Of a stretch of DNA of 64,000 bases, positions 41,869-64,000 are shown one piece after another (position 1 is the stretch's first letter; the number at the start of each line of letters is the position of its first letter). Both the position numbers and the translations under genes were made by a program. The DNA comes from an uncultured bacterium (GTDB lineage: Bacteria; Omnitrophota; Omnitrophia; Omnitrophales; Aquincolibacteriaceae). The stretch lies in NCBI GenBank assembly GCA_964373045.1, contig CAYJSI010000005.1:371-64370 (forward strand), read 5' to 3'. The notes under the pieces are model-generated. The model had not been told where the DNA came from. It worked only from the letters and a program-made list of their open reading frames with translations, and made no database searches.

Positions 41869-42843
41869 TCAAGCCGGTTGGATTTCTCCCGCGGGTTCCG
41901 GGCGGGGAGTGAAATCCTTAAGCCTTGCCCTTTCATTGACCTCTTCCACCCAGCTGTTGAAACGCTCGAAACGCTTCTGATTTAAAATCTCATCTCGGTA
42001 CTGGACCTTCTGATTTTCTTGAAGAGAGGTGCTCCCAACTGTTTCTTTGTTCAGCATTCGCAGGACTGCAAATTCATCACCGATTCCAAGGGGCTCCGAA
42101 ATGGCTTCGCTTTTAAGTTGACGAAGCCTTTGCGCGCTGTTTTCCGAGAGTTTCCAGGATTGAATAAAGCTATCGAGATTGACATCGGAAAGCGTGGTAA
42201 AACGGGACGAATCTCTTTTTAATTCTTCCTCCCACTGCTTGGGGTCATTTGTTTTTTGGCGGAAGGCGTCAGCCTCCCCGCGGGACTTAAATCGGATCAG
42301 TTCAACCGACGTCGTTTTTTGCCCCGCCTCAAATTTTTTCAGAATTTCCTCATCGGTCGGGGGCGGGATCGGCGTCTCATTCATTTCTTGGATCAATCTT
42401 TGAACCCGCAACAACTCCCGAATCTGACTTTCGAAATCCCGCGCGGACTCTCGAAAAGCTCCCTCCACCCAACGCTTATAGGCTTGCGGGGATGGATTTT
42501 CTATTTTTTGCAGGGCAAGAAGACGCAGGACCTCCTGACGCACTTCCTCATCCGTGACCTCGACTCGGCGGCGATGAGCCTCTTTCGAAAAAATGAGGTT
42601 TTGCCAGGCGTGTTCTCGGACCGCCTCAGGGTCTTTGGGAGTGTTTCCCGTAAAGGTAAAAATTTCACTTGCCCTTAAGAAACGATTGAATTCCTGGAAA
42701 GAAACCTCCTTTCCAAAGATTTCACCGGCGACCCTGCCTTGTTTTTGAAATTGCTGTCCGACGCTATAACCACCCCATAAAGAAAAGGCGATAATGACGG
42801 TCCAAATAATTAATTTTGTATTTTTTCGGAGACTTTTTAACAT
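41869..42843 (-). CDS. SurA-N-domain periplasmic chaperone-like protein (PpiD/SurA-like, no obvious PPIase domain)
   Basis: N-terminal TM anchor, then a SurA-N-like helical chaperone domain. Family assignment from memory. Confidence 0.5.
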   Translation of the reverse strand: MLKSLRKNTKLIIWTVIIAFSLWGGYSVGQQFQKQGRVAGEIFGKEVSFQEFNRFLRASEIFTFTGNTPKDPEAVREHAWQNLIFSKEAHRRRVEVTDEEVRQEVLRLLALQKIENPSPQAYKRWVEGAFRESARDFESQIRELLRVQRLIQEMNETPIPPPTDEEILKKFEAGQKTTSVELIRFKSRGEADAFRQKTNDPKQWEEELKRDSSRFTTLSDVNLDSFIQSWKLSENSAQRLRQLKSEAISEPLGIGDEFAVLRMLNKETVGSTSLQENQKVQYRDEILNQKRFERFNSWVEEVNERARLKDFTPRPEPAGEIQPA

Positions 42844-44904: not shown

Positions 44905-45904
44905 GGTGGCGAAACGCCTGCAAAAAGTTTTTATCCGCCTGGGAGTTTTTTTTGCGTGCGGGATATTTTTTTTGCCTTTGAGTCTCAGGGCCGATTATGA
45001 CGAGGAACTTCGAGATCAGATCCAATCCGTGCAAACACGGCACGTACGCTTCAAAACCCTTGAGTATTTTCATGACATGGGGATCCTTGCCCGCAAAGCG
45101 GATGAGGCCGAGCTTACTCCCCTCACGACTGAGATCGTAAAATCGCTGCTATTGAAAACAATGGAAGAGTATGTGACAGGAGAGTTAAAGCACATCAATG
45201 AACTTTATGTCACCGATCCCTCCGCTGCCACGGAGCTGCTTATCTCCCTCAATCGTTTTGAGCGTTTTTATCAGCCGACCGAAGATTACAAGGGGACGAC
45301 TCACGGCCAGGTTTTGTCGGCGGAATTAGCGCGCTTGAGGGGCGAGGCCCTTCTTGATCTCGCCCACTCCTGCTCGGATGACTCCATCTTAAAAGGGCTT
45401 CACGCCCTGCGCGCCACAGGGGTTTTTGTCACGAATCATAGCGAAGAGGTTTCACGTTTGCAGGAAATCGCATCGGGTCTCGATTGCTGCCTCGGCTGGA
45501 AAACGCATCTTGATTTTCAAAGCCAGAAGGAATTTGAAAACGATTACGAAAAAGGTGTCTTGGTTGAAGAAGTTCATTTAAAATTGCTGACAAACCGGAA
45601 AAATTATCAGCGGGCAAAGTGGAGTGGGGAATGGATCTACCGGTTTAAAGGACGGGAAGGGGCGGGGGAGGGCTTGAGCCAGGCCACCTTTGAATACTTG
45701 AAGGGGAGCGATGTCGCCCAACTTGCGATTTCGGCCAGCAGGGTTTCCTCTGCAGGTCGCATTAATTTTCCCATGCGGCTTGCCGGTGAAAAACGCGAGG
45801 TGTCCATGGCGGGAAAACCGATTGTGCCTGAGGTTAACTTTCCAAACGCCACGACTCCTGTCGTGCTTGTCGGTTGCCTGCAGGCCAAGGGTAAAAATGA
45901 ATAA
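44858..45904 (+). CDS. hypothetical membrane-anchored protein
   Basis: One N-terminal TM; no recognisable domain; overlaps both neighbours. Confidence 0.45.
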   Translation: MDPVLQAALLALRKIRVAKRLQKVFIRLGVFFACGIFFLPLSLRADYDEELRDQIQSVQTRHVRFKTLEYFHDMGILARKADEAELTPLTTEIVKSLLLKTMEEYVTGELKHINELYVTDPSAATELLISLNRFERFYQPTEDYKGTTHGQVLSAELARLRGEALLDLAHSCSDDSILKGLHALRATGVFVTNHSEEVSRLQEIASGLDCCLGWKTHLDFQSQKEFENDYEKGVLVEEVHLKLLTNRKNYQRAKWSGEWIYRFKGREGAGEGLSQATFEYLKGSDVAQLAISASRVSSAGRINFPMRLAGEKREVSMAGKPIVPEVNFPNATTPVVLVGCLQAKGKNE

Positions 45905-51881: not shown

Positions 51882-52688
51882 ATGTATCTTGACTATTGGG
51901 GACTCAGCGACAAGCCGTTTAGGAACACCACGGACCCGCGGTTTCTTTGCCTCTCCGAGCAGCACGAGGAGGCGCTAACGCGCCTTAAATTTGCGGTAGA
52001 AGAATTCAAGGCCTGCGCCCTGTTGACCGGTGTCTTTGGAACCGGGAAAACCCTCCTGGTTCAGGCCCTGCTCGAAGGCCTGCGGCCCGATCAGTTTGTC
52101 TCAGCCTATATCTTCAATCCTCAGCTTGATCACGTGGAACTGCTTCGCGAAATTCTTTATGAGTTGGGAGCGCGCGATCACATCCCGGAGCATAAAAGCG
52201 ACGTCATGCACCGTCTCTCGGAGATATTAAATGACAACTATTCCGAAGGGCGCCATGCCGTGATCGTTATAGACGAGGCCCACTTAATTGAGGGCCGTCT
52301 CATTTTTGAAGAATTGCGCATGCTTCTCAATTTCCAGAAACCCGATAAGTTTTTGCTCACGCTCATTTTAGTGGGGCAGCCCGAACTTCGGGAGAAGATC
52401 GCAAACTTGAAGCCCCTTGATCAGCGCGTTTATATCCGCTTTCATTTAAAAGGCCTGAAGGCCGATGAAACAAAGGCCTACATCCTCCATCGGCTGGCGG
52501 TGGCGGGGGCGACCAAGGAAATTTTTGAGGAGGATACCTTCTCCGCGATCCATGAAGCAACGGGCGGAATCCCGCGGCGCATCAATCAGATCTGTGATTT
52601 GGCTCTGCTTGCTGGTTTTGGGATGAAGTTATCGACGATTAATCAGTCGGTTCTGAAGGAAGTGGTCATGGATTCTCAAGCGGTCTAA
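51882..52688 (+). CDS. ExeA/GspA/MshM-like AAA+ ATPase, copy 1
   Basis: Walker A GVFGTGKT and Walker B VIVIDEAHLI. About 270 aa, the size of ExeA-like secretin-assembly ATPases. Confidence 0.75.
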   Translation: MYLDYWGLSDKPFRNTTDPRFLCLSEQHEEALTRLKFAVEEFKACALLTGVFGTGKTLLVQALLEGLRPDQFVSAYIFNPQLDHVELLREILYELGARDHIPEHKSDVMHRLSEILNDNYSEGRHAVIVIDEAHLIEGRLIFEELRMLLNFQKPDKFLLTLILVGQPELREKIANLKPLDQRVYIRFHLKGLKADETKAYILHRLAVAGATKEIFEEDTFSAIHEATGGIPRRINQICDLALLAGFGMKLSTINQSVLKEVVMDSQAV

Positions 52689-52704
52689 GTGAGGAATTTA
52701 TAAA

Positions 52705-54378
52705 ATGCGTTTTTCTGATATCGTCAAACCCAGAGACGAAGCGGAGGCAGCCTTTATCCAAAAAGAGACCCCTCCCAAGACAGCAAAACCGCCCCAACCC
52801 ATCCCAAGTCCTCCACGCAAGGCACCTGCCCAGGCAGAACCCCTGCGCGTCGATCGTGCCGCCATTGAAAAAGAACTTCGCGCCCAGCTTGAGAAAGAAT
52901 TTCAGATGAAGAGGGAGGGCATGGAAACAGAACTCAAGATGCTTTTTGAGAAAAAACGCCAGGAAGAAGTTGTGCGATTGCGTGAGCATGAAGACACCCT
53001 GCTCAGTCAGCAGGAAAAACTCAGCCGGATGTTCGAGGAGTTTCAAAAACAAAAGGAAGAAAAACAAAAGGAGGAGAAACGCAAAGAAGTTACGGAAAGC
53101 GAACGGCGGATGGAAGAGCTTCAAAAGAAAATTCTAGAACGGGACCAAACGCTTCGCAAAATGGAAGCGGAGATCAGGGGTCAAAAGGAAAAAACCGAGG
53201 AAAGAACTCCCACCGCGCCTGCGGCGCGACCAAAGGCTCCTGAGCAATACGAAACATCGGTTGAGACCGGACCTCCGCCCATTGTCGAGATCCCGCCTTT
53301 TACAAAACCCGTGGTGCGCGAGAAAGTCGATGTTTCGACGATCTTTGATCCGGTTCGTCACAAAAAGGCCAAGTCGATTGCGGAAGAATTGATAGCCCGC
53401 GGAAGTCCTGTCATTGAAAAAATTGCAAAGTCGGAGCCCTTTGAGGTCACAGGGTTGACTGCATCGCTCGCCTCACTCGTTGATCTGGCACTTCAAAGTG
53501 ATGCAGAGTTGATTCATTTGCTTTTTCAACCTTATAGCGAAACCACCGAGTTTATTTCCCACGCCCTTAATTCTGCGATCCTATCCGTCATCCTCGGGCT
53601 TGATCTTCAACTGGCCTCAGATGAGCTTCGCGAGCTGGCCCTCGCCGCTTTTCTGCATGACGTCGGCCTTGTGAATATCAGAGAGAATCTTAATTATCCA
53701 AAACAATTGACGGATGATGTCCAAAAAGAAATCTTGAGCCATCCCATTCGCGGCGCTGATCTTTTGGCAGACAAGGTGAGCGAGCCGGCCGTAACTGCCA
53801 TTCGTCAGCATCATGAAGTCTGTAACGGCAAGGGTTATCCGGAGGGGCTGACAGATAAGCAGATTCACCTTTACGCCAAGATTCTTCACGTGGCGGATGT
53901 CTTTGAGGCCCTGACCCATGAACGCCCTTACCGGAAAAAACCCTTTGAGGTGAATGAGGCGATGAAGGAAATCATCGAAAAGGGCCGCGGGGTCTATGAC
54001 CCGGCGGTGATGAAGGTCCTGATGGGCCGCATTGGTCTCTATCCTCCCATGAGCCTCGTGGAACTCAGCAATAAACAAATCGCTCGCGTCATTCGGCTGA
54101 ATCGAAAATTCCCCTTAAGCCCCGTGCTTCGCGTTGAGTTTGACGAAAACGGAAACAAGCTTGAAAGGCCCCCCGTCTTGGATTTAAGCGAATCTCGGGT
54201 CATCCACATTACGGGACCCGTGAGAGAATCCCCCTCTTTTCACGCCAAAAAGATGGCGGCGGAGACGTCTAGGACAGCTTCGGCGGCGGCCGGCAGCCCG
54301 CGATTTATCGAATTCATCCCTATGGTTCTCATTGCCATCGCTATTCTCCTCCTCCTCTATATTGTGGTAAAGATCTAA
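52705..54378 (+). CDS. HD-GYP domain c-di-GMP phosphodiesterase with long N-terminal charged coiled-coil and C-terminal TM tail
   Basis: Within a contiguous HD-GYP domain I see the FLHDVGL (HD) and NGKGYPEGL (GYP) motifs. The first ~200 aa are K/E-rich coiled coil. The last ~25 aa are hydrophobic. Confidence 0.85.
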   Translation: MRFSDIVKPRDEAEAAFIQKETPPKTAKPPQPIPSPPRKAPAQAEPLRVDRAAIEKELRAQLEKEFQMKREGMETELKMLFEKKRQEEVVRLREHEDTLLSQQEKLSRMFEEFQKQKEEKQKEEKRKEVTESERRMEELQKKILERDQTLRKMEAEIRGQKEKTEERTPTAPAARPKAPEQYETSVETGPPPIVEIPPFTKPVVREKVDVSTIFDPVRHKKAKSIAEELIARGSPVIEKIAKSEPFEVTGLTASLASLVDLALQSDAELIHLLFQPYSETTEFISHALNSAILSVILGLDLQLASDELRELALAAFLHDVGLVNIRENLNYPKQLTDDVQKEILSHPIRGADLLADKVSEPAVTAIRQHHEVCNGKGYPEGLTDKQIHLYAKILHVADVFEALTHERPYRKKPFEVNEAMKEIIEKGRGVYDPAVMKVLMGRIGLYPPMSLVELSNKQIARVIRLNRKFPLSPVLRVEFDENGNKLERPPVLDLSESRVIHITGPVRESPSFHAKKMAAETSRTASAAAGSPRFIEFIPMVLIAIAILLLLYIVVKI

Positions 54379-54560
54379 CTGACCTACTGTTTGTAGTACC
54401 CCCCGCTCACTCCGGCCTAAAGTGTCGCAACCCCTTTTTCTTCAAAGGGTTGTCTTAAGAAATCCCCTCTGATTGCCGATCTTAGATAAGCAGCTTTCAT
54501 GAGGTCCAAAGGGGATTTTTGTCCCCCGAAAGCCCTCAAAAATATAGGAATTCGGGATCC

Positions 54561-55430
54561 ATGAGCTACTATCGAGTCCTTGGACTTGAAAGGGAACCTT
54601 TTTCGACGAGCCCGGACCCTGCCTTTTTTTATGAATCGAGGCATCACAAGGCAGCCCTGGCCAATCTGATGATCGAGCTTCGTCTCAAGCGCGGCCTGAG
54701 CGTGATCCTAGGGGATGTGGGAACGGGGAAAACGACCCTGGGTCGCAAGCTGATTCAAATGCTGCGCGACCGGGAGGGTTTTATTTTTCATCTTATCCTA
54801 GATCCCTCTTATAGCTCTGAGGAATTATTTCTCGAATCACTGATTCGCACCATGGGGATCGAGATTTCTCATCCCAAACCCAGCGTCATTGATTGCAAAG
54901 AAGCCCTTGAGCGGCATCTCTTTCGAATCGGAGCCGGCGGGGACAAAACACTTGTCCTGATTATCGACGAAGCGCAGAAGATGAATCCCATGTCGCTAGA
55001 AATCCTCCGCATGCTCCTCAATTACGAAACCAATGAATACAAATTGCTGCAGCTCGTTCTGCTTTCCCAGGTCGAGCTGATGCCCAATTTGGTCCACATG
55101 CAGAACCTGCTTGACCGCATCAGCCTGAAATGTATTTTGGAGCCCTTAAACGAGGAAGAGACCCGGGAAATGATTCATTTCCGTTTGCGCCAGGCAGGCT
55201 TCGGCGGGCGTTATCATCTTTTTGTAGACGAGGCTGCCCGGGAGATCTACCGCGCCACGCGCGGATATCCGAGAAAGATTGCAATGCTTTGCCACCGCGC
55301 CCTTAAAACTTTGGTGATGAAAAACCGAGAGATTGTGAATGCTGAAATGATAGAATCCCTGGTGGGTGAGGAGGTTCGAGCAGGATGGTACAACGCAAGT
55401 CCACTCCCGAAGAGCAACTTCTTAAGCTGA
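54561..55430 (+). CDS. ExeA/GspA/MshM-like AAA+ ATPase, copy 2
   Basis: Walker A GDVGTGKT and Walker B VLIIDEAQKM. Start taken at MSYYRVLGLE. Confidence 0.75.
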   Translation: MSYYRVLGLEREPFSTSPDPAFFYESRHHKAALANLMIELRLKRGLSVILGDVGTGKTTLGRKLIQMLRDREGFIFHLILDPSYSSEELFLESLIRTMGIEISHPKPSVIDCKEALERHLFRIGAGGDKTLVLIIDEAQKMNPMSLEILRMLLNYETNEYKLLQLVLLSQVELMPNLVHMQNLLDRISLKCILEPLNEEETREMIHFRLRQAGFGGRYHLFVDEAAREIYRATRGYPRKIAMLCHRALKTLVMKNREIVNAEMIESLVGEEVRAGWYNASPLPKSNFLS

Positions 55431-56092
55431 TCGAAGGCTCAGGCGCCAAGCCGGAAGACTCAAAAATGGCTGGAGCCGCTAAGCCCAAGCGCGGATCAGT
55501 CTTTGGAAGGGCGCCGGGTTTTATTTCTTATTTCAAGACTCAATGGGGAAGACGTGAAATCGGGGCTCCCTGGAAAGGGATTTCGGTGACGACCCTTGAT
55601 ATCAAGGGAATCAACCGAATTCTCATGGGGATGATCTTTGCCACGGTGATTTATCTTCTGCTTGACCTCGTGATTTTAAAACCCAGTCACGCGAATTTTT
55701 TAGCGCAGGTGAGTACGAGCGACCCCGTCTACCCCGTCTTAGAAAAACAGCTTCAAACCTCGGAGCAGGATCTCGCGCTTTATAAGCAATCCTTTCAAAA
55801 ACGAAATCCATTTTTCCTACCCTCGGCCCAACCGGCCGATGAATCTGGTGTTCCAGGTTCACTTGCCATGTCCACCGGATCCACAAGCCGTGTGGTGCAG
55901 GCGCTTCAGGGGTTGAAGCTGGTCGGTGTTTCACTCGGAGGCCGTGACCCCATCGCCATGGTGGAAGATGAATCCACGGGGCGGACTTATTTTCTCAGGC
56001 ACGGCCAGGAGGTTCGGGGCGTCAAGGTCCAGTCGATTCGCCAAGAAAAGGTTACCGTGACCTTTGAAGGGGAAGAAGGAGAACTGCTTTAA
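55385..56092 (+). CDS. single-pass membrane protein (possible GspB/ExeB-like partner of ExeA)
   Basis: About 85 cytoplasmic residues, one TM (ILMGMIFATVIYLLLDLVIL), and a periplasmic C-terminal region. The role is inferred from its position between the ExeA-like ATPase and the secretin. Confidence 0.35.
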   Translation: MVQRKSTPEEQLLKLIEGSGAKPEDSKMAGAAKPKRGSVFGRAPGFISYFKTQWGRREIGAPWKGISVTTLDIKGINRILMGMIFATVIYLLLDLVILKPSHANFLAQVSTSDPVYPVLEKQLQTSEQDLALYKQSFQKRNPFFLPSAQPADESGVPGSLAMSTGSTSRVVQALQGLKLVGVSLGGRDPIAMVEDESTGRTYFLRHGQEVRGVKVQSIRQEKVTVTFEGEEGELL

Positions 56093-57685
56093 ATGAAAAA
56101 GCGATTCGTTTTCTTTTTATTTCTATCCTTTCTCCTGAATAGTTCGAAACAAGCCGCTTTCTTGAGGGCCCAGGACTTGGGATCCGACTCGGGGATCCAC
56201 TTGAATCAGATTCCGGCGCGTATTGCCATTGACGCAAACGCCCCTGCCCTGAAGGAGCGCGTCACACTCGACCTGCGCAACATTGAAATTGGGGAGGCGC
56301 TGAAATTTCTTGCCCTTAAGGGAAATTTAAATCTTGTCATCGGTAAAAATGTAACGGGGCGCATCTCGCTGTATCTCACGGATGTCACGGTGGGGGATGT
56401 GCTTGAAATCATGCTTTTGAGCAATAGCCTGGCCATTGCAAAGCAGGGCGAAATTTACAATGTGATGAGCGAAACGGAATACCAGGCCCTTTATGGAAAA
56501 CGTTTTTCAGATCTTCGGGAGGCTAAAATTTATAAGGTCCGATACGCCGTCCCGAGCCAAATGTTTACCGTTTTAAGCTCCGTCAAAAGTGACATCGGGA
56601 AAGTGGTCATCGATGAAGATTCTGCCACGCTTATCTTGATGGATATCCCTGAGAAAATTGAGGAGATGGACAAAATTATTTATGAAATGGAAAAAGGTCA
56701 GAGCCTTCGGATTTTTAATTTGCGCTATGCGAAGGCGGCGGATGTCGAGGCCAACTTGAAAGAACGGCTTGATGCCTTGAAGCTCGGTACGGCACGCTCA
56801 GATGAGCGGAGCAATACGATTATCGTCTCGGCCCTCTCCAAGCGGATGGAAGAAGTTGAAAAAATTGTTCAAGCCCTCGATGAGAAGACAAGAGAAGTCT
56901 TAATCGAAGCAAAAATTATCAAGGTTACTTTAAGTGACGATTACGATCAGGGCATTGACTGGAAGAGAGTGATCAGAGATGCAGGCAATGACTATCATCT
57001 AGAGAAATTTCGGCCGATACTGTCCGGTACCTTTACAAAACCTGCGGCCGTGACACAATTTGGGCGACTTCAAATCGGAAATACCAGCACGGATGCCTTG
57101 AGCGCTACGATCGATTTTCTTCAGACGGTGGGGCAGACCAAGGTGCTGGCGAGTCCCCGAATCATGGCGATTAATAATGAATCGGCTAGAATTTTAATCG
57201 GGACGCGAGAGGCATTTGTGACCACGACAACGACCACGGGACAAACGACGTCAACGACTGCCGAAAACGTAACCTTTGTCGATGTGGGCATTTCTTTGGA
57301 GGTGACGCCCACGATCAATGATGACGGTTACGTGACCATGAAGATCAAGCCTGAAATATCCAACGTAGCCCGCACGCTTACGACCCCGACTGCGAACCAG
57401 ATTCCCATTATCGATACCACGCTGGCTGAGACGAGTGTGATGGTCAAGGATGGCACGACGATTATTATTGGCGGCCTCCGGAAAAATGAAAAGGTAAAAA
57501 CGGTCACTAAAATTCCCGTGCTTGGCAGCATCCCTATTTTAGGGGCGCCCTTCCGCAGAACGGACGAGGACCTGGAGAAAATCGAGCTCGTGGTTTTTTT
57601 GACCCCGTACATTATCACGGGAGACACCACGTTTACGGACCGCCAGATTTTGGATAAACAGGTCAAACCGTTTAAGACGTATTAA
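56093..57685 (+). CDS. secretin (GspD/PilQ/MshL family outer-membrane channel)
   Basis: Signal peptide, N0/N1 secretin-N domains, and the C-terminal secretin domain with VLASPRIMAINNESARI...TKIPVLGSIPILGAPFR signature. Confidence 0.9.
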   Translation: MKKRFVFFLFLSFLLNSSKQAAFLRAQDLGSDSGIHLNQIPARIAIDANAPALKERVTLDLRNIEIGEALKFLALKGNLNLVIGKNVTGRISLYLTDVTVGDVLEIMLLSNSLAIAKQGEIYNVMSETEYQALYGKRFSDLREAKIYKVRYAVPSQMFTVLSSVKSDIGKVVIDEDSATLILMDIPEKIEEMDKIIYEMEKGQSLRIFNLRYAKAADVEANLKERLDALKLGTARSDERSNTIIVSALSKRMEEVEKIVQALDEKTREVLIEAKIIKVTLSDDYDQGIDWKRVIRDAGNDYHLEKFRPILSGTFTKPAAVTQFGRLQIGNTSTDALSATIDFLQTVGQTKVLASPRIMAINNESARILIGTREAFVTTTTTTGQTTSTTAENVTFVDVGISLEVTPTINDDGYVTMKIKPEISNVARTLTTPTANQIPIIDTTLAETSVMVKDGTTIIIGGLRKNEKVKTVTKIPVLGSIPILGAPFRRTDEDLEKIELVVFLTPYIITGDTTFTDRQILDKQVKPFKTY

Positions 57686-57735: not shown

Positions 57736-58950
57736 GTGGACAAAAGAAAGCTGGTATCGCGTTTGACAAGTTTGGATGATATTTCCGAAGGTGTCATCCC
57801 CGCATGCTTTAAGCGGGGATCCATGGATTCCGGCTTTCGCCGGAATGACAAAACTTACTCGAGTACAATGAACGGTAACCCAGCTGCTCATCAAGCACGG
57901 TTCTTCTTAAAATTATTTGCGATTCTTTTCTCTTTTATTTTTTCTCTCTTACCCTTCTCCTATGCCCTTTTTGAAAACCCTGACAAACAAAAAGTGGTCG
58001 AACTGGAAGCTCAAATGCAGAAACTGAATGAAAAAATCCGCACCGTGACCTTGGATCGCGATAATCTGCTTAAGCAGGCGAAGGCGATCCAAGTGGAAAA
58101 AGATGAACTCGGCAAAAAAATAGAGCAGATCAATAACGCGAGCTCAGGCGCCGCCCTTGAAGTTGATTCTTTAAAAAAAGAAACAGGCGTTCTCAAAGTC
58201 GAGCTTGAAAAGATGAAGGCGGCCCGTGAAAAAGATGCCAAGCTTTACCAGGAAGAGAAGGGCAACCTGGAAAAGCAATTGACCGACGAAAAGGCGAGGG
58301 CCGATTCTGTGGCCTTGATGATGAAAGAATATACTCCCGAACGCATCCAGGGCCTGATTGAAGACAGAAACCGCCTCGAGGAAGAGAGCAAGCGGATGGC
58401 GCAGCGGGTTTTTGAATATGAAAAACGCATGGAAGAAATGCGTAAACAGATGACCCCGCTTGAACTCGACCGCGAGGAACTTCACCGCGTGCAGGCGGAG
58501 AATCGCGAATGGCGGAACAAATTAGGTTATGTGCAGACCATTGAAAAGCGGCAGAAGCAGTTGATCGCAGAAAACGCAGAATACCGCAATCAGATTGAAA
58601 TTTTGAAGGCCAAGTTCAAAGACGCGGCGCCGGGCCTTGCCAAATCGAGCCGCATCTCCCAGAAAATGATGAGAGAAAACGCGGACATGCACTATAATCT
58701 CGCGAACATTTTTTTAAACAACAAGCAATATCGTGAAGCCATGCGAGAATATGAGCGCGTTTTGGAATTGCGACCCTCCGACCCCGAAACCCATTACAAC
58801 CTCGGAATCCTTTACGATGATTATTTGAAAGACCGCGACAAGGCCCTGTACCATTACCAAAAATATTTAACGATTAACCCCAAGGCCCCGGATGCCAAGC
58901 ACGTGGAGTCCTATATCTTGAATCTTGAATTAGAGCAAAAGGTCCGCTGA
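57736..58950 (+). CDS. coiled-coil protein with N-terminal TM and C-terminal TPR repeats (MshN-like?)
   Basis: Hydrophobic segment FFLKLFAILFSFIFSLLPFSYALF, a long heptad-rich coiled coil, and two or three C-terminal TPRs. The true start may be an internal ATG (57826 or 57871). Confidence 0.5.
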   Translation: MDKRKLVSRLTSLDDISEGVIPACFKRGSMDSGFRRNDKTYSSTMNGNPAAHQARFFLKLFAILFSFIFSLLPFSYALFENPDKQKVVELEAQMQKLNEKIRTVTLDRDNLLKQAKAIQVEKDELGKKIEQINNASSGAALEVDSLKKETGVLKVELEKMKAAREKDAKLYQEEKGNLEKQLTDEKARADSVALMMKEYTPERIQGLIEDRNRLEEESKRMAQRVFEYEKRMEEMRKQMTPLELDREELHRVQAENREWRNKLGYVQTIEKRQKQLIAENAEYRNQIEILKAKFKDAAPGLAKSSRISQKMMRENADMHYNLANIFLNNKQYREAMREYERVLELRPSDPETHYNLGILYDDYLKDRDKALYHYQKYLTINPKAPDAKHVESYILNLELEQKVR

Positions 58951-58952: not shown

Positions 58953-61900
58953 GTGATCGTGAAGAAAAGCATTCACCTTTTTTATGCGCTTTTCATTCCC
59001 GCCTTTTTTCTTCTCCCTTTTTCTGCCTTTGCCAAAATCGAGCAGTGGGACTTTCAAAACCCGATCGATTACCGTTATGAGCCGCAAAAAATAAAAGTGG
59101 GGGACGGCACAGCCCGGCTCCTGCAGCATGCCCCTTACCGGGATAACAAGGGTGAGGCCTTTGACCGGGGCACTTATCAAGGGGCGTGGGCCCCATCGGG
59201 TGCGGTGGAACCCCAGCGTTACCCCTTAGAAGAAAAGAATCCCCGCCAAGTCTCAGCGCCGCTTGCCAATCAGACCCCGGGACTGCTCGCCCTCTGGCAT
59301 TTTGATGAGCCGAGCGGCACCCATCTTCTTGATGAAATAAACCGCAACGTGGCTAAGGGCAGCGATCTTCAAGTCGTGAGCGGCCAAACAAACTTTCAAT
59401 ATGCGCGTCAGTTTGACGGGCACAAGAGCCACGTCTTTATTCCTCACTATCAAAGGTTTGAACTGAAAGGCCCTTTCACGCTCGAGGCCTGGGTCCGGCC
59501 GGGAGCGGTCCCAAGCGCCAAGCCCCAGACCATTCTTTCCCGCTGGCAGAGTGTGGGTTCCCAAAAAGTTTTTGCCTTGCAGATCAATCCCGAAGGCAAA
59601 ATCGATTTTCTTGTTTCTTCCAACGGCTCGACTGTGGTTCATCACTTAAGTGAATCAGCGGTGGCGGCGGGATTTTGGTATCACGTGGCAGCCGTCTTTA
59701 CGGGCTCGGATCTTAGAATTCATTTAAATGGCGTGCTGGACGGGGAGCCGACGCCCTTTCGCGATAAGATTTATCAAGCCGCCAATCCCATGTACCTGGG
59801 CGCTCTCGTGGACAATCGCATCGATGAACTTTTCCGCGGCTCCATGGATGAAGTGGCGATTTATGACCGCGTCCTTTCTGAAATGGAGACCTTAAGCCAC
59901 GCCGGCAATGCCGAGGCCCTGGTCGCGCTCTGGCACTTAAATGAGAGGGGCGGCGTTCTGATGGATCGTTCCGGCTTGGGTCATAATGCCATTGCCCACG
60001 GCAACCCGGAATATGAGGCCGAAGGAAAGCTGGGTTCTTCGCTTCATTTTGACGGGAAAGATCAATTCCTTGAAACGCCGGAGACTTTTCGTTTTGGACC
60101 GAACGATGAATTAACCCTCGAGGCCTGGATCAAGCCCGACAAACTTCCTTACCCCGAACGATTCGTGACCCTCCTCTCGGGTCGCGGCGAAAAAAGCGAA
60201 TATGTCCTGTCTCTTGTCGGTCCCGAGGGACGTCTCCGTGCTTTTGCCCCCACGCTTACGCCCGCTGAAGTGATAAGCCAACATAAGGTGGTGCCGGATG
60301 TTTGGCAGCATGCGGCCGTGACCTGGTCTAAAGGAACGGTTCGTCTTTATTTGAACGGATTACTCGACACCTCTGCTCCGTACCACGGCGTGCTTGAGAC
60401 GGGTAAAACAGAGGTGCGCCTCGGCATGGACTTTTTAAAAACAGCCCCCTTTAAGGGTTCGATCGATGAGGTGGCCATTTACCGGCGTGCCAAGAGTGCT
60501 TATGAAATGGCCAAAACCGCGGGGCTCTTTTCTCCCTATGCCCTTTATGAATCCTCGATCAAGGATGCGGGAGGCGTTGTCCCCTGGCAGTCGCTTTCCT
60601 GGAAAGAGTCTCTGCCCTACGGGGATGAATTTTCCACGAATGCCAAGGGGCTTGTGCATCTTTATCATTTGAATGAACCGGACGGCCAGATCTTGGGAGA
60701 CAGCCGCGTCATCTCGGCCCTGCACGCCACGGGCACCTACGAAGTCCCGGGACTTTTTTCGCGCGCCCGCTGGTTCGCCGAAAAAGGGAGCGATAAGATG
60801 ATCTCCGAAAGAGAGATCCCTTCCTTTAATACCTTTACCGTTTCCTTTTGGTTTCAGTTTGCCTCGCCCGTGGCAGGGGCCTCAGACAGGCTTTTTAGCA
60901 TCGGGGATGAAAATCCCTCGATGGTTCGCGCCGCCCCGGACGGGCGTCTTCATGTGATGGCCGGCGGTCAGCGAAAAATGACGAGCGCAAGTTCGCTTAC
61001 GGATACCCATTGGCATCACGCGGCGCTTAGTTCGGATGGCCAGCAGCTTTTTCTATATTTGGACGGTGTCTTAAATGCCGTAAGCCCCTTCACGACCGAG
61101 ACGGCCAACCAGCCCCTTGTGCTGGGGAACCTAAAATCCTCCGACACCTTTCAGGGGGCCATTGATGAATTTGCCTTCTTTAATTATGCCCTGGCGCATG
61201 AAGAGATTTGGAATCATTTCCTTGCGGGAAAACTCGATCTTCGATTTCTGGTCCGCTCCTCCCAAGAGGCGGTGGTGGCGAACGCCCCGTGGTACGGACC
61301 GCGGGGGGTTCAAAAAGGGGATCGTGAGGCCAGTGTCTTCACCATCGGCCTCTGGCACTTTAATGAAGGCAGCACGCCTGACGGTTCCCTTAAAATAGCG
61401 GATGCAAGCCGCTATGGTCATCATGCCGCTGTCTACGGAAACGTTTCGATGGTGCCGGGCGGGATCCTCGACGGCGGCTTACTTTTTAATGGATCAACGG
61501 ATTTTCTCGAGATCCCCGATTCAGAAATCATGCATCTTACGGACCAATTCACGCTTTCAGGTTGGGTCCGGCCTTTTGAAATGACGACGCAGGATTCCCG
61601 CATTTTGGATAAACATTATCACGCAGACGCACCTGTCTTTTCCTCGTTTGCTTTGGAACTCACCTCCGGAAACCGCCTGGCCCTCAAAGTAGGCCGCCCG
61701 GGCGGTTATCAGGTGATAACCACGGATCGTGATGGCGAGATTGCGGTTGACCGATGGAATCATGTGGCGGCAACTTACGACGGAAAAGAAATAAAACTCT
61801 TTATTAATGGAAAGCTCAAAAAATCGTCCTCCTTTGATGAGCGTATTCCTTACGACGGGGGCGCGCTATTCATCGGCCGAAGCGGCGGCGGAGAAGCCGC

Positions 61901-64000
61901 CTATTTCAACGGTTTGCTGGATGAAGTCGGCATCGAGAATCAGGCCTTAAGCGATGAGGAAATCCTTTCTCTCTATCAGCGGGCGGATCCGGAGAACTTT
62001 TATCGAAGAAGCGAACTTGAAAAGTTAAAAGTTGCGCCGGGCCGTTACTTCCAATATCAGGCCCATCTCTCTACGGATTATTTTGCGGCAAGGCCTCTCC
62101 TTGCTTCGGCGGAGGTCCGCGGCGCCAGTTTTCCCACGGACCTGCCTTTCATTTCAAATAATGTCAGCGTCTCTTATGCCGAGATTCAACATTTTGCGGA
62201 AAGGCCCGGCAAAAAGCATGGAGGGGCGCTCAGTTATCAGTTTTCCAATGACGGATCCAACTGGTTTTATCATAACGGCCGTCACTGGGTTTTGGCGGCA
62301 GATCCGCTTGAATCCAATACCGCCGCGCAGGCAGCCTCGCGCATTCGTGATTTTGCAAGAGAAGTCGGCATCGGAAGTTTTTATTTCAAGGCTTTTCTTC
62401 ACTCGCCCACGGGTCTCGAACCTGCCGAATTGGATGCCGTTGAGGTCGACTATCTTCCGAATAAACTGACGGTCTTAAGCCCTAATGGCGGCGAGGCCTG
62501 GCTCGTAGGTTCTCAGCAGCAAATTGTTTGGAGTTCTACGGGCGAGGTTCAACAGATCAGTCTTGAATATTCCAAAGATAATTTTGAAAAGGATTTTCAG
62601 GCCATCGCCAGGGATATTGCAAACACAGGAGCCTATGCCTGGAAAGTTCCCGACGATCTTACGCCGCAAGCCAGGATCCGCGTTTCCGATATTTCAGATC
62701 CCCGCATCTATGACAAATCGGACACCGGTTTTCGCATCATCGGTGCCTTTGAGGTCGTGAGTCCCAATTATGCGGAGCGCTGGGCGGTTGATTCCGAGCA
62801 AGAGATTTCCTGGCGCACTCTGGGCGCGATTCCGCAGGTGAAACTCGAATATTCAACCGATGAGTTTGAACAGGCCGTTTTCCCGATTGTGGACTCGGTA
62901 GAAAATGAAGGCCGATACGACTGGAAGATCCCCGATCTCATTTCTCCTTCGGCCAAGGTCCGGGTTTCGGACGTTCGCGATCCGCTCACTTATGATCAAT
63001 CAAACGACACCTTTGCCATCGTGGGCACGCTTTCGCTGGTTAGTCCCCAGGCAAAAATGCGCTGGGCGGTTGATTCCGAGCAGGAGATCCGCTGGCAGAC
63101 CCTGGGCAATGTCCCCTCGGTAAAGATTGAATATTCTCTGAGTGAAAATAATCCGAATCACATCTGGCGCGCCATTGAAGACGCCTATCTCAATCGGGGG
63201 GTCCTTCTATGGAAGGTGCCCGATGCCATTGATCCCGCCGTTCGAATCCGGATCTCTGATGTTCGTGACAAGCAGGTGGCCGTCGAGAGCCCTCCCTTTG
63301 CCGTTACAGGAGGCCTGAAGCTCCTTCTCCCTAAGGGAGGAGAGAAGTGGACGGTGGGGAGCCGCCGAAAAATTGCCTGGCAGACGCGAGGGACGGTTCC
63401 TGCGGTTTATTTGAAATACGCGCGCTTGGATTCCGTGTTTGAGACAACGGCGTCGGAAGACTCGCTTGCCAAAGTGAAATGGCAGACCTTCGGTGACGCG
63501 ATCCCCAACACCGGGAGCTTTGCGTGGGACGTTCCCGATGAAATTTCGGAACGGGTCGTGATTCGCATCGTGGATGCCAAGGATTCTCGGGTGATGGCTC
63601 AGAACCAGGCCGCCATTCAAATCATTCCCGGTTTTGTGCTGAAAGTTCCGAACGGGAATGAATCGTGGAAGGTGGGCTCTGAGGTGGACCTTCTCTGGGA
63701 AACCAAGGGAAGCATTCCCTATGTGAAGCTGGAATATTCCAAAGATCGTTTTGTCAGTGACCTTCAAACCATTATTCCGAGCGCCTCCAACATCGGGCGA
63801 TTCGCCTGGAAGGTGCCGGATGATCCCGCCAAGCAGATTCGAGTCCGCGTCTCCGACCCGAGCGTTCCCGAGGCCTCGGATCTCTCGGATGTGCCCTTTC
63901 GCGTTTTCGCCGATTTCAAAATCAAAACGCCGCACGGGGGTGAAAAATTTGAAGTGGGAAGTATCGCCCCCTTGGCTTGGAAGACGCTCGGAACGGTCCC
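58953..64000 (+). CDS. giant secreted surface protein (>1680 aa, 3' end beyond window): signal peptide, 4 LamG-like (concanavalin-A-like lectin) domains, then 8 or more tandem ~90-aa beta-sandwich repeats
   Basis: GTG 58953 gives the signal peptide VIVKKSIHLFYALFIPAFFLLPFSAFA. I translated by hand to 64000 and found no stop, so it is absent from the ORF track. There are four LamG_3-like units (ALWHFDE...LEAWVRP...DEVAIYDRVLS and variants). From about 62440 there are tandem repeats of the form P-x-GGE-x-W-x-VGS...I-x-W...V-x-LEYS...G-x-[FY]-x-W-x-VPD...RIRVSD. Confidence 0.75.
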   Translation, partial: MIVKKSIHLFYALFIPAFFLLPFSAFAKIEQWDFQNPIDYRYEPQKIKVGDGTARLLQHAPYRDNKGEAFDRGTYQGAWAPSGAVEPQRYPLEEKNPRQVSAPLANQTPGLLALWHFDEPSGTHLLDEINRNVAKGSDLQVVSGQTNFQYARQFDGHKSHVFIPHYQRFELKGPFTLEAWVRPGAVPSAKPQTILSRWQSVGSQKVFALQINPEGKIDFLVSSNGSTVVHHLSESAVAAGFWYHVAAVFTGSDLRIHLNGVLDGEPTPFRDKIYQAANPMYLGALVDNRIDELFRGSMDEVAIYDRVLSEMETLSHAGNAEALVALWHLNERGGVLMDRSGLGHNAIAHGNPEYEAEGKLGSSLHFDGKDQFLETPETFRFGPNDELTLEAWIKPDKLPYPERFVTLLSGRGEKSEYVLSLVGPEGRLRAFAPTLTPAEVISQHKVVPDVWQHAAVTWSKGTVRLYLNGLLDTSAPYHGVLETGKTEVRLGMDFLKTAPFKGSIDEVAIYRRAKSAYEMAKTAGLFSPYALYESSIKDAGGVVPWQSLSWKESLPYGDEFSTNAKGLVHLYHLNEPDGQILGDSRVISALHATGTYEVPGLFSRARWFAEKGSDKMISEREIPSFNTFTVSFWFQFASPVAGASDRLFSIGDENPSMVRAAPDGRLHVMAGGQRKMTSASSLTDTHWHHAALSSDGQQLFLYLDGVLNAVSPFTTETANQPLVLGNLKSSDTFQGAIDEFAFFNYALAHEEIWNHFLAGKLDLRFLVRSSQEAVVANAPWYGPRGVQKGDREASVFTIGLWHFNEGSTPDGSLKIADASRYGHHAAVYGNVSMVPGGILDGGLLFNGSTDFLEIPDSEIMHLTDQFTLSGWVRPFEMTTQDSRILDKHYHADAPVFSSFALELTSGNRLALKVGRPGGYQVITTDRDGEIAVDRWNHVAATYDGKEIKLFINGKLKKSSSFDERIPYDGGALFIGRSGGGEAAYFNGLLDEVGIENQALSDEEILSLYQRADPENFYRRSELEKLKVAPGRYFQYQAHLSTDYFAARPLLASAEVRGASFPTDLPFISNNVSVSYAEIQHFAERPGKKHGGALSYQFSNDGSNWFYHNGRHWVLAADPLESNTAAQAASRIRDFAREVGIGSFYFKAFLHSPTGLEPAELDAVEVDYLPNKLTVLSPNGGEAWLVGSQQQIVWSSTGEVQQISLEYSKDNFEKDFQAIARDIANTGAYAWKVPDDLTPQARIRVSDISDPRIYDKSDTGFRIIGAFEVVSPNYAERWAVDSEQEISWRTLGAIPQVKLEYSTDEFEQAVFPIVDSVENEGRYDWKIPDLISPSAKVRVSDVRDPLTYDQSNDTFAIVGTLSLVSPQAKMRWAVDSEQEIRWQTLGNVPSVKIEYSLSENNPNHIWRAIEDAYLNRGVLLWKVPDAIDPAVRIRISDVRDKQVAVESPPFAVTGGLKLLLPKGGEKWTVGSRRKIAWQTRGTVPAVYLKYARLDSVFETTASEDSLAKVKWQTFGDAIPNTGSFAWDVPDEISERVVIRIVDAKDSRVMAQNQAAIQIIPGFVLKVPNGNESWKVGSEVDLLWETKGSIPYVKLEYSKDRFVSDLQTIIPSASNIGRFAWKVPDDPAKQIRVRVSDPSVPEASDLSDVPFRVFADFKIKTPHGGEKFEVGSIAPLAWKTLGTV

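What the first reader, a model, noticed from the sequence alone, without database searches (positions are those of the whole stretch)
51882..57685. Orphan secretin module: ExeA-like ATPase, tail-anchored HD-GYP, second ExeA-like ATPase, single-pass protein, secretin, with no pilus/T2SS core genes nearby
A complete secretin (N0/N1 plus secretin domain) is preceded by two intact paralogous ExeA/GspA/MshM-like AAA+ ATPases (both have Walker A and B) and a small single-pass membrane protein positioned like GspB/ExeB. In Aeromonas/Vibrio, ExeA-ExeB assemble the GspD secretin through the peptidoglycan. In MSHA pili, MshM-MshL are the analogous pair. Here no GspE/F or PilB/C/M-P genes occur within 12 kb on either side. 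An HD-GYP c-di-GMP phosphodiesterase is inserted between the two ATPases. This suggests a c-di-GMP-coupled secretin assembly or export unit, possibly serving the adjacent giant LamG protein or an exopolysaccharide. It is the best candidate for a non-canonical system in the window.
Basis: partly seen in the sequence, partly recalled or inferred. Interest (0 to 1): 0.7.

Follow-up and report, generated by a model that had tools for sequence, protein, structure and literature searches.

The report
Detached arm of Omnitrophota secretion machine
The five genes are real, but they are probably not a stand-alone "orphan" system: they look like the outer-membrane half of a type II secretion-like machine found across the uncultured phylum Omnitrophota, here carrying an extra c-di-GMP-degrading enzyme and sitting directly upstream of a giant surface-protein gene.

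Summary
All five ORFs exist at the stated coordinates. They form one tightly packed, same-strand gene string that continues into a coiled-coil/TPR gene and a giant LamG gene.

Both ATPases are ExeA-family AAA+ proteins with intact Walker motifs, but they lack ExeA's membrane and peptidoglycan-binding parts. The HD-GYP has intact motifs and a conserved C-terminal membrane anchor. The single-pass protein is a GspC/PilP-type secretin-binding protein, not GspB/ExeB.

The core ATPase2–X–secretin–TPR recurs in about 45 Omnitrophota genomes, with conserved overlapping start and stop codons. In 14 related loci it is contiguous with a full type II secretion core: GspE with a c-di-GMP-binding motif, GspF, L- and M-like proteins, GspG and minor pseudopilins. 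In 10 other loci that core lies just downstream of the 3' end of a giant LamG gene.

The window module is therefore most likely the GspA/C/D arm of a split type II secretion system. The rest is predicted beyond the giant gene, outside the window, and I could not verify this. Secretion genes flanking Omnitrophota giant genes are already published. The paired ExeA-like ATPase/HD-GYP cassette and the giant gene embedded in the operon appear to be new details.

The parts
51882..52688 (+). ATPase1: cytoplasmic ExeA/MshM-like AAA+ ATPase (268 aa), a paralogue of ATPase2 at 28% identity. It forms a recurring two-gene cassette with the HD-GYP gene.
   Evidence: AAA_22 83 bits; TIGR03015 227.5 bits, below the 324.5 cut-off. 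Aeromonas ExeA matches at 158 bits, E=8e-49. Walker A and B are conserved in 14 orthologues. 28% identity to ATPase2. An ATPase1-like gene next to an HD-GYP gene is also seen in L037, L049 and L050.
52705..54378 (+). HD-GYP phosphodiesterase (557 aa). It has a Lys/Glu-rich N-terminal half, a catalytic domain at about 280-445 and a C-terminal transmembrane tail anchor at about 535-555.
   Evidence: HD_5 93 bits. It aligns to solved HD-GYPs 5z7c, 4mcw and 4r8z, with the HD and HHExxxGxGYP motifs in register. The hydrophobic tail and GYP motif are present in 10 of 10 clade orthologues and the HD motif in 9 of 10 by a simple pattern match.
54561..55430 (+). ATPase2: the phylum-wide core ExeA/MshM-like AAA+ ATPase (289 aa). 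Its 3' end overlaps the start of gene X by 46 nt.
   Evidence: AAA_22 68 bits; TIGR03015 179.7 bits. Aeromonas ExeA matches at 122 bits. 39 orthologues, each scoring 340-520 bits against it. The 40-46 nt overlap with X recurs in about 30 loci. Start codon.
55385..56092 (+). X: a GspC/PilP-type single-pass inner-membrane protein (235 aa). It has an invariant cytoplasmic N-terminal helix (TPEEQLLKLIE), a transmembrane segment at about 73-97, an RNPF motif and a C-terminal homology-region beta domain (170-235) of the kind that binds secretin N0.
   Evidence: A profile of 25 orthologues matches M. xanthus PilP 3jc8 at E=2.9e-8 and ETEC GspC-HR 3oss at E=0.012. In the AlphaFold model the C-terminal domain has pLDDT above 94. 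The top 13 Foldseek PDB matches are all PilP or GspC-type proteins (GspC, PulC, LspC); 3oss_C aligns at rmsd 1.4 A, TM 0.78. Conservation.
56093..57685 (+). Secretin (530 aa): signal peptide, N0, two ring-forming N domains and the secretin barrel. It has no AMIN domain and no S domain.
   Evidence: Pfam Secretin 161 bits and Secretin_N 67 bits. GspD, PilQ and MshL equivalog models all score below their cut-offs. AlphaFold model. The best structural matches are the T2SS secretins PulD, GspD and ExeD. A 4-nt overlap or abutting junction with X recurs in about 30 loci.
57868..58950 (+). Coiled-coil/TPR protein (about 360 aa from Met45 of the 404-aa ORF that starts at 57736). It has an N-terminal hydrophobic anchor or signal, a long coiled coil and C-terminal TPRs. 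It is a conserved fourth member of the core and occupies an MshN-like position.
   Evidence: TPR_11, TPR_1 and related models match at residues 316-360. There are weak matches to the Tgl and PilW models. 40 family members were found across the related loci, nearly always directly after a secretin gene. Relatives are called at 345-355 aa.
58953..64000 (+). The 5' part of a giant secreted LamG/Kre9-like repeat protein. It starts 2-8 nt after the TPR gene and runs off the window. In close relatives the gene encodes 5402 and 6941 aa. It is the probable cargo or partner of the machine.
   Evidence: Open frame of 1683 codons with a signal-like N-terminus. Gene calls in L002 and L004 give 6941 and 5402 aa with Laminin_G_3 domains. 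14 of 22 loci have an ORF of 1000 aa or more downstream of the secretin, against 2 of 32 upstream.
41869..42843 (-). SurA-like chaperone/PPIase (324 aa). Here it lies 9 kb upstream on the opposite strand. In other lineages it follows the TPR gene directly.
   Evidence: SurA_N_3 51 bits; Rotamase_2 weak. Fifteen full-length family members were found in the census, about ten of them just after the TPR gene (L005, L019, L021-L024, L027, L034, L043). This matches the 'conserved Rotamase_2 isomerase' of the locus described in bioRxiv 10.1101/2023.11.21.568195.

Best explanation
The region encodes the GspA-like, GspC-like and GspD arm of a type II secretion-like machine (type IV filament superfamily) that is conserved across Omnitrophota.

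**Proposed assembly (inferred).**
- The secretin forms the outer-membrane channel.
- Protein X sits in the inner membrane and grips the secretin N0 domain with its PilP/GspC-type beta domain.
- X presents an invariant cytoplasmic helix, most likely to the soluble ExeA/MshM-like ATPase2, whose gene overlaps its own.
- The anchored coiled-coil/TPR protein and a SurA-like chaperone assist in the periplasm.

**The missing half (predicted, not seen).** The inner-membrane core consists of GspE with an MshE-type c-di-GMP-binding N-terminus, GspF, a PilM/GspL-like protein, a GspM-like protein, GspG and minor pseudopilins. It is not in the window. I predict that it lies downstream of the 16-21 kb giant LamG gene, possibly after an F1-like ATPase cluster, or elsewhere in the genome.

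**Cargo and control (inferred).** The giant LamG protein, encoded between the two halves, is the likely cargo or surface partner. In this clade a second ExeA-like ATPase and a tail-anchored HD-GYP were added. They probably lower c-di-GMP locally and so tune the c-di-GMP-sensing GspE.

**Shown versus inferred.** Shown: domain identities, the fold of X, synteny across genomes, and contiguity with a T2SS core in relatives. Inferred: the physical contacts, the cargo, the regulatory logic and the location of the core in this genome.
For: - **Component identities:**
- **Conserved core:** a genome scan with the X profile returned 45 loci, all but one or two from MAGs titled Omnitrophota/Omnitrophica or from unnamed or Planctomycetia-labelled MAGs. 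Nearly all carry ATPase2-X-secretin-TPR. The ATPase2/X overlap of 40-46 nt and the X/secretin 4-nt overlap each recur in about 30 loci.
- **Direct link to T2SS:** locus L046 reads hth-ATPase2-X-secretin-TPR-TPR-GspE-GspF-PilM/GspL-like-GspM-like-pseudopilins.
- **Reciprocal scan:** 80 metagenome loci were retrieved with that GspE. In 13 of them E-F-L-M-G/I/K pseudopilins are contiguous with ATPase2, X or the secretin. In 10 a LamG giant ORF ends 4-7 kb upstream of GspE, with conserved post-giant genes and, in the five loci read in detail, an F1-like ATPase cluster in between. Only 3 loci with full flanks have neither.
- **T2SS identity of the core:** GspG passes its equivalog cut-off (138.8 against 88.85). 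GspE carries the MshE-type c-di-GMP motif above cut-off (52.7-57 against 38).
- **Giant gene association:** 14 of 22 downstream against 2 of 32 upstream, Fisher p=8e-6. With the window clade excluded this is 7 of 16 against 2 of about 23, p about 0.02.
- **Recurring c-di-GMP link:** HD-GYP genes recur near the module in distant lineages, next to an ATPase1-like gene in L037, L049 and L050 and upstream of GspE in L126.
- **Literature:** T2SS-like loci containing a Rotamase_2 isomerase upstream of Omnitrophota giant genes (bioRxiv 10.1101/2023.11.21.568195); secretion or pilus flanks at 13 of 14 giants (10.64898/2026.06.07.730766); gspD treated as a 'loner' gene in T2SS detection models (PMC6668835).
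Against: - No GspE, F, L, M or pseudopilin gene is seen in the window or within 10 kb of the module in any of the 10 close relatives or most distant ones. Only L046, out of 45 genome loci, has them.
- The contiguous examples come from more distant lineages (secretin 280-430 bits against 780-880 bits within the window clade).
- The two halves were never seen on one contig separated by a giant gene, so the 'split by a giant gene' picture joins two sets of loci by inference.
- The source contig (68 kb) ends inside the giant gene.
- In V. cholerae, deleting mshM or mshN does not reduce MSHA pilus production (PMC4624765). The role of short ExeA-like ATPases is therefore unclear even in the best-studied relative.
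- No experiment exists for any Omnitrophota component.
Confidence: 0.7

Rival explanations
1. **Autonomous minimal secretin unit.** The secretin, X and the ExeA-like ATPases export or display the giant LamG protein without any pseudopilus, GspE or GspF. The AAA+ ATPases supply the energy and the HD-GYP supplies c-di-GMP control.
For: 44 of 45 genome loci show no GspE or GspF within 10 kb. A giant gene is the conserved downstream neighbour. Two intact ATPases are present.
Against: The same ATPase2-X-secretin unit is embedded in complete T2SS operons in 14 loci. The ATPases are soluble and have no known way to drive transport across two membranes. A GspC/PilP-type protein normally links a secretin to an inner-membrane platform. 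T4aP/T2SS-type clusters are reported in nearly all Omnitrophota (PMC10066038).
Confidence: 0.1
2. **Pilus secretin.** The module is the outer-membrane part of a type IVa or MSHA-like pilus (MshK/L/M/N-like components) used for attachment to hosts. It would not be a protein-secreting T2SS, and the giant gene would be only a co-regulated adhesin.
For: - The component set PilP-like + secretin + ExeA-like ATPase + TPR mirrors MshK, MshL, MshM and MshN. MshM is described as an ExeA homologue (PMC4624765).
- PilQ and GspD models score equally (240.9 against 243.1 bits).
- X matches PilP better than GspC.
- Seymour et al. call the F1-ATPase-linked clusters 'type-4a pili'.
- GspE has an MshE-type c-di-GMP motif.
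Against: - The linked core has a GspG that passes the T2SS equivalog cut-off, plus GspI- and GspK-like minor pseudopilins and a GspM-like protein.
- My seed set contained no PilT, so PilT was not searched for specifically. No second GspE/PilB-family ATPase was seen in these clusters.
- The MshL model scores below its cut-off (201.5 against 250.2).
- The best structural matches to the secretin are T2SS secretins.
Confidence: 0.15
3. **Polysaccharide or PEP-CTERM/exosortase-type export.** The TIGR03015-like ATPases and the secretin would serve the surrounding exopolysaccharide locus.
For: The ATPases' best NCBIfam match is the XrtA/PEP-CTERM-associated ATPase. Two TIGR04073 exosortase-associated proteins lie at 43425-44248. 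Wza, Wzc and Wzy-like genes, a GGDEF gene and sugar-modifying genes are in the window.
Against: Both ATPases score well below the TIGR03015 cut-off. No exosortase was found among the window ORFs scanned with Pfam. The PIG-L/WbqC/GT4 genes next to the module are absent in two close relatives (L002, L004) that keep the module. Distant loci keep the module without polysaccharide genes. Secretins are not known polysaccharide exporters, and a Wza-type exporter is already present.
Confidence: 0.04

Closest known systems
Type II secretion system, specifically the GspC-GspD outer-membrane complex with the accessory GspA/ExeA (as in Klebsiella Pul, ETEC Gsp, Aeromonas Exe)
   Same: Secretin with N0 plus ring domains. 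An adjacent single-pass protein with a homology-region domain like GspC. An ExeA-family AAA+ gene at the head of the unit. In relatives the unit is contiguous with GspE, F, L- and M-like genes, GspG and I/K-like pseudopilins.
   Different: - X lacks the PDZ or coiled-coil C-terminal domain of GspC and has an invariant cytoplasmic helix.
- The ATPases are short and soluble, without the transmembrane, C39-like and peptidoglycan-binding domains of ExeA.
- There is no GspB.
- A coiled-coil/TPR protein and a SurA-like chaperone are fixed members.
- A giant gene and, in some clades, an HD-GYP are inserted.
- The core genes are not adjacent in this genome.
MSHA pilus secretory operon of Vibrio cholerae (MshK-MshL-MshM-MshN, c-di-GMP-binding MshE)
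   Same: The same four kinds of component: PilP-like protein, secretin, short ExeA-like ATPase and TPR protein. Both systems have a c-di-GMP link through an MshE-type ATPase motif.
   Different: The gene order is permuted. The MshL model scores below its cut-off. The linked core has T2SS-type GspG and K pseudopilins. The c-di-GMP enzyme is an HD-GYP inside the module rather than a separate regulator.
[quoted passage not shown] (PMC10066038)
   Same: Same phylum. A secretin/GspD next to a giant gene. A conserved Rotamase_2-type isomerase. c-di-GMP-related genes nearby. An F1-like ATPase beside the GspE cluster.
   Different: Searching the main text of those papers for 'ExeA', 'HD-GYP' and 'secretin' found no mention of them. 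I found no description there of the ExeA-like ATPases, the GspC/PilP-like protein, the ATPase/HD-GYP cassette or the split arrangement. The published description emphasises gspE, gspF and rcpC (Tad-like) genes, which are absent here.
XrtA/PEP-CTERM system-associated ATPase (TIGR03015)
   Same: Best-scoring curated model for both ATPases. The alignment is full length.
   Different: Scores are 227.5 and 179.7 against a cut-off of 324.5. No exosortase was found. The genomic partner is a secretin rather than an exosortase locus.

Membership tests
Type II secretion system | Outer-membrane secretin of the GspD type | tested here: met
   Pfam Secretin 161 bits and Secretin_N 67 bits. The top Foldseek matches are PulD, GspD and ExeD. 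The GspD equivalog model TIGR02517 scores only 243 against a cut-off of 351. This supports secretin family membership but not GspD equivalog status.
Type II secretion system | GspC-type inner-membrane protein with a homology-region domain that binds secretin N0 | tested here: met
   Profile against PDB: PilP E=2.9e-8, GspC-HR E=0.012. Foldseek: 3oss_C rmsd 1.4 A, TM 0.78. Pfam T2SSC matches orthologues at E=2.8e-4, below threshold. Binding itself was not tested.
Type II secretion system | GspE ATPase, GspF platform, GspL/M and G-K pseudopilins in the same genome | not testable with these tools
   These genes are absent from the 64-kb window. The genome beyond the giant gene could not be fetched. 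In 14 related loci they are contiguous with the same module, and GspG passes its equivalog cut-off.
ExeA/GspA | N-terminal AAA+ domain homologous to ExeA | tested here: met
   Aeromonas caviae ExeA against ATPase1: 158 bits, E=8e-49. Against ATPase2: 122 bits, E=1e-37. They share the N-terminal GL..PF...DP motif and Walker A and B.
ExeA/GspA | Transmembrane segment plus periplasmic C39-like and peptidoglycan-binding domains | tested here: not met
   Aeromonas ExeA has GspA_C39-like and PG_binding_1 domains. The window ATPases are 268 and 289 aa with only the AAA+ domain.
GspB/ExeB | T2SSB C-terminal domain (PF16537; PDB 4wfw) | tested here: not met
   X against T2SSB gives E=0.12, whereas ExeB gives 3e-21. 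hhalign of the X profile against ExeB gives probability 1.2%. 4wfw is not among the Foldseek matches.
MSHA pilus system | MshL-type secretin | tested here: not met
   TIGR02519 scores 201.5 bits against a cut-off of 250.2.
MSHA pilus system | Short soluble MshM ATPase and MshN TPR protein beside the secretin | tested here: inconclusive
   The architecture and neighbourhood agree. No MshM or MshN model was available in the libraries searched. The TPR matches are generic. The MshM-ExeA homology comes from PMC4624765.
Type IVa pilus | PilQ secretin with PilM/N/O/P alignment genes | tested here: not met
   TIGR02515 scores 240.9 against a cut-off of 284.35. The model has no AMIN domain. No PilM, N or O gene is in the window. 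X is PilP-like but anchored by a transmembrane segment.
XrtA/PEP-CTERM-associated ATPase (TIGR03015) | Score above the curated cut-off, and an exosortase locus | tested here: not met
   227.5 and 179.7 bits against 324.5. No exosortase family was found among the window ORFs scanned with Pfam.
HD-GYP c-di-GMP phosphodiesterase | HD_5 domain with HD and HHExxxGxGYP motifs | tested here: met
   HD_5 scores 93 bits against a cut-off of 27.2. The motifs align with 4mcw, 5z7c and 4r8z. The Lys of the usual HDxGK motif is Leu here. Enzyme activity and substrate (c-di-GMP or cGAMP) were not tested.

The most novel reading that the evidence does not exclude
The machine is a type II secretion system dedicated to one cargo, a 0.6-0.75 MDa LamG repeat protein whose gene sits inside the operon between gspD and gspE. 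Export would be gated by c-di-GMP through an ExeA-like ATPase/HD-GYP pair acting on an MshE-type GspE. This would be a secretin-dependent route for megadalton adhesins, which in known bacteria use type I secretion.
Probability: 0.3. Interest if true: 0.75.

Novelty: new variant of a known kind. Interest (0 to 1): 0.45.

Why it matters
Omnitrophota are uncultured, ultra-small and probably predatory or parasitic bacteria. Their giant proteins are thought to mediate attachment to hosts, but how such proteins reach the surface is unknown.

This analysis gives the secretion locus beside the giant genes a defined parts list: a short ExeA-like ATPase, a GspC/PilP-like adaptor, a secretin, a coiled-coil/TPR protein and a SurA-like chaperone. 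It ties that list to a GspE that carries a c-di-GMP-binding motif. It also identifies a recurring ExeA-like ATPase/HD-GYP pair as a candidate regulator.

If the giant protein is the cargo, the size limit assumed for type II secretion would need revisiting. The function of short ExeA/MshM-type ATPases, unclear even in Vibrio, would gain a new test system.

Tried and rejected
- **Exact look-up of the window secretin:** not on record. The 100%-identical shorter call lies on a 2-kb contig only.
- **Searching with the giant protein** to obtain full-length relatives and so read the DNA beyond the giant gene: only proteins under 3000 aa came back and none was usable. The region downstream of the giant gene in the window clade therefore remains unseen.
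- **E. coli K-12 GspA as a reference for the ATPases:** too divergent (BLAST E=3e-5 and 0.002; no NCBIfam match). Aeromonas ExeA replaced it.
- **PDB sequence search with ATPase1:** no match.
- **Anti-phage defence reading of the ATPase + HD pair** (prompted by a Pfam nSTAND6 match): PADLOC gave only P-loop-level matches at E of 1e-4 or weaker, so I rejected it.
- **Promoter and terminator scan of 49-59.5 kb:** counts no higher than in shuffled sequence, so uninformative.
- **Bridging the 'module-giant' and 'giant-core' locus sets** through the two conserved post-giant genes: no copies were found in the first set.
- **Pseudopilin motif scan of the module loci:** hits only in L046, plus one false hit.
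- **The small conserved ORFs upstream (43425-44248) as possible pseudopilins:** rejected. They belong to the TIGR04073 family.

Full report
**Observation.** The window carries a same-strand gene string:
- ATPase1, 51882-52688
- HD-GYP, 52705-54378
- ATPase2, ORF from 54519, likelier start 54561
- a 235-aa single-pass protein I call X, 55385-56092
- a secretin, 56093-57685

A coiled-coil/TPR gene ends at 58950. A giant LamG-repeat ORF starts 2-8 nt later and is still open at the window end.

Pfam and NCBIfam confirm the domain assignments. Both ATPases keep Walker A and B across all orthologues, and they are 28% identical to each other. The HD-GYP aligns to solved HD-GYP enzymes with its HD and HHExxxGxGYP motifs in register. 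Its hydrophobic C-terminal tail is conserved in 10 orthologues.

The secretin model shows a signal peptide, N0, two further N domains and the barrel. Its best structural matches are the T2SS secretins PulD, GspD and ExeD.

I scanned the other large ORFs of the window, roughly 58 kb upstream. They encode arginine and menaquinone biosynthesis, an exopolysaccharide cluster (Wza, Wzc and Wzy-like genes, a HAMP-GGDEF gene) and housekeeping genes. None is a GspE/F or PilB/C/M-P gene.

**Organism.** Every close secretin homologue that carries a source name comes from Candidatus Omnitrophota.

**What the parts are.**

*The ATPases.* They belong to the ExeA family. Aeromonas caviae ExeA, found by tblastn and identified by its AAA_22 + C39-like + PG_binding_1 architecture and adjacent ExeB, matches ATPase1 at 158 bits and ATPase2 at 122 bits. 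The window proteins contain only the AAA+ domain, like MshM of Vibrio, which the literature describes as an ExeA homologue (PMC4624765). They score below the cut-off for the PEP-CTERM-associated ATPase model.

*Protein X.* It is not GspB/ExeB. The Pfam T2SSB match is E=0.12 and hhalign against ExeB gives 1% probability. A profile of 25 orthologues instead matches M. xanthus PilP (E=2.9e-8) and the ETEC GspC homology region (E=0.012). The confidently modelled C-terminal domain superposes on GspC-HR at 1.4 A. The top 13 PDB matches are all PilP or GspC-type proteins. X also has an invariant cytoplasmic N-terminal helix (TPEEQLLKLIE), one transmembrane helix and an RNPF motif.

**Conservation.**
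- Close relatives (secretin 68-79% identical) keep ATPase1-HD-GYP-ATPase2-X-secretin-TPR-giant LamG. The giant genes there encode 5402 and 6941 aa. Two of these relatives lack the PIG-L/WbqC/GT4 genes that sit just upstream of the module in the window.
- Distant relatives (about 50% identical) keep only ATPase2-X-secretin-TPR, followed after a few genes by a large ORF.
- A genome-collection scan with the X profile returned 45 loci. Apart from one record titled Methanosarcinales and one titled Planctomycetota, they come from MAGs titled Omnitrophota/Omnitrophica or from unnamed or Planctomycetia-labelled MAGs. My phmmer census shows the four-gene core in nearly all of them.
- A SurA-like isomerase follows the TPR gene in about ten loci. 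A small MerR-type HTH gene precedes ATPase2 in many lineages other than the window clade.
- ATPase2 overlaps X by 40-46 nt, and X overlaps or abuts the secretin by about 4 nt, each in about 30 loci. This points to translational coupling.
- Large downstream ORFs of 1000 aa or more occur in 14 of 22 loci with enough flank, against 2 of 32 upstream (p=8e-6). With the window clade excluded the figure is about p=0.02.

**Is it an orphan?** One genome locus, L046, reads hth-ATPase2-X-secretin-TPR-TPR-GspE-GspF-PilM/GspL-like-GspM-like-pseudopilins. I used that GspE to scan metagenome contigs and retrieved 80 loci:
- 13 have E-F-L-M and G/I/K-type pseudopilins contiguous with ATPase2, X or the secretin.
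- 10 have the 3' end of a LamG giant ORF 4-7 kb upstream of GspE. Conserved post-giant genes lie between them, and in the five loci I read in detail an F1-like ATPase cluster (epsilon, b, alpha, gamma, beta) does too.
- 3 with full flanks have neither.
- The rest are too short to judge.

GspG passes its T2SS equivalog cut-off. GspE carries an MshE-type c-di-GMP-binding motif above its cut-off. One locus, L122, has the giant gene, the core, and the secretin with X all within 22 kb.

The GspE proteins closest to L046's (67-78% identical) are those with a giant gene upstream. The simplest picture is therefore an operon A2-X-D-TPR-[chaperone-giant-F1-like ATPase]-E-F-L-M-pseudopilins, with the bracketed part present or absent by lineage. 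For the window genome this predicts that the core lies past the giant gene, outside the window. I could not check this. The source contig ends inside the giant gene, and the tools did not let me reach beyond 10 kb from the secretin in relatives.

**How it most likely works.** The following is inference. The secretin forms the outer-membrane pore. X links it to the inner membrane through the N0/homology-region contact known from GspC-GspD and PilP-PilQ complexes. The cytoplasmic helix of X probably recruits ATPase2. The anchored coiled-coil/TPR protein and the SurA-like chaperone act in the periplasm. The giant LamG protein has a Sec-type signal and is the likely cargo or surface partner.

The clade-specific ATPase1/HD-GYP pair would degrade c-di-GMP at the membrane and so modulate the c-di-GMP-sensing GspE. 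HD-GYP genes recur near the module in distant lineages: next to an ATPase1-like gene in L037, L049 and L050, and upstream of GspE in L126. In those lineages the HD-GYP lacks the tail anchor. A HAMP-GGDEF gene lies at 29539-30912.

**Rivals.**
- An autonomous secretin unit remains possible, because the core is not adjacent in 44 of 45 genome loci. The contiguous operons elsewhere and the soluble nature of the ATPases argue against it.
- A pilus (MSHA or T4aP-like) reading fits the component set and the better PilP match. The linked core, however, has GspG, I and K-type pseudopilins and no second GspE/PilB-family ATPase. My seeds included no PilT, so PilT was not searched for specifically.
- A polysaccharide or exosortase role is unsupported.
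- An anti-phage reading of the ATPase/HD pair found no support in PADLOC.

**Comparison with the literature.**
- West-Roberts et al. reported a T2SS-like locus with a Rotamase_2 isomerase upstream of Omnitrophota giant genes, and c-di-GMP-related PilZ genes downstream.
- A 2026 preprint found secretion or pilus flanks at 13 of 14 giants.
- Seymour et al. noted F-type ATPase clusters beside 'type-4a pilus' clusters.
- T2SS detection models already allow gspD to be encoded apart from the rest.

The general association is therefore known. Searching the main text of two of those papers for 'ExeA', 'HD-GYP' and 'secretin' found no mention of them. I also found no description there of the GspC/PilP-like adaptor, the recurring ATPase/HD-GYP cassette or the split arrangement around the giant gene.

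**Verdict.** The locus is a variant T2SS-like arm, not a new kind of system. Interest is moderate, mainly for the possible secretin-dependent export of a megadalton protein and the c-di-GMP wiring.

Noticed in passing
L057:4913-9998, L066:5084-9988, L072:4926-9989, L095 and L122 likewise: A five-gene F1-like ATPase cluster (epsilon-, b-, alpha-, gamma- and beta-like) sits directly upstream of GspE in the five loci read in detail. Homologues of its subunits turn up in 30-45 or more of the 80 GspE loci. It probably corresponds to the non-respiratory 'type 2/3 F-type ATPase' that Seymour et al. reported beside Omnitrophota pilus clusters.
   Followed up: partly
L057:3-3284, L063, L066, L070, L072, L073, L095 (ORF ends): Giant LamG proteins that end upstream of GspE share a conserved C-terminal region ending ...YLKNKTQ.LKA.M....KM.DN.ANKPVTQTW(Y/F)E(Y/F)K. 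This could be a sorting or anchoring signal. The C-terminus of the window's giant protein is not available for comparison.
   Followed up: no
window 43425-43847 and 43850-44248: Two tandem small proteins belong to the exosortase-system-associated family TIGR04073 (62.9 and 46.1 bits against a cut-off of 50). No exosortase was found among the window ORFs scanned. Together with two unknown ORFs, a PLD-like gene and a TPR-metalloprotease (44239-49308), they form a block conserved upstream of the module in the window clade only.
   Followed up: partly
L022:10669-17009, L023:4218-9876, L047-L050: Some lineages carry two secretin genes in tandem, separated by a much enlarged coiled-coil/TPR gene (600-1300 aa). 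In L047-L050 the SurA-like gene precedes X, and in L047, L049 and L050 an ATPase1-like gene follows (with an HD-GYP gene after it in L049 and L050).
   Followed up: no
L046:8887-9171 and about 30 other loci, just upstream of ATPase2: A small (75-100 aa) MerR/HspR-like helix-turn-helix gene precedes ATPase2 in most lineages other than the window clade. No copy was detected in the window at E below 1e-3. The 183-nt gap at 54379-54560 holds no such ORF.
   Followed up: partly
L022:8887-9981, L023:2327-3529, L026:7374-8723, L037:8432-9967, L051:8256-9773: In several lineages a membrane-anchored long coiled-coil protein (364-511 aa) is inserted between ATPase2 and X. This breaks the otherwise conserved gene overlap.
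   Followed up: no
window 27359-36913 and 29539-30912 (-): A polysaccharide export set (Wzy_C-like, TPR protein, Wza-like Poly_export/SLBB, Wzz plus tyrosine-kinase-like ATPase) has a HAMP-GGDEF diguanylate cyclase on the opposite strand. This is a possible source of the c-di-GMP that the HD-GYP would degrade.
   Followed up: no
window 45711-45904: The PLD-like ORF as listed (572 aa) overlaps the preceding ORF by about 190 nt. Relatives are called at 500-508 aa, so the true start is probably near 45900.
   Followed up: no
window 53650-53670 (HD-GYP residues about 316-322): The usual HDxGK motif of HD-GYP enzymes reads HDVGL here and HD(I/V/M)GL in nine of the ten clade orthologues. The conserved lysine is replaced by leucine. 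The effect on activity or substrate choice is unknown.
   Followed up: no
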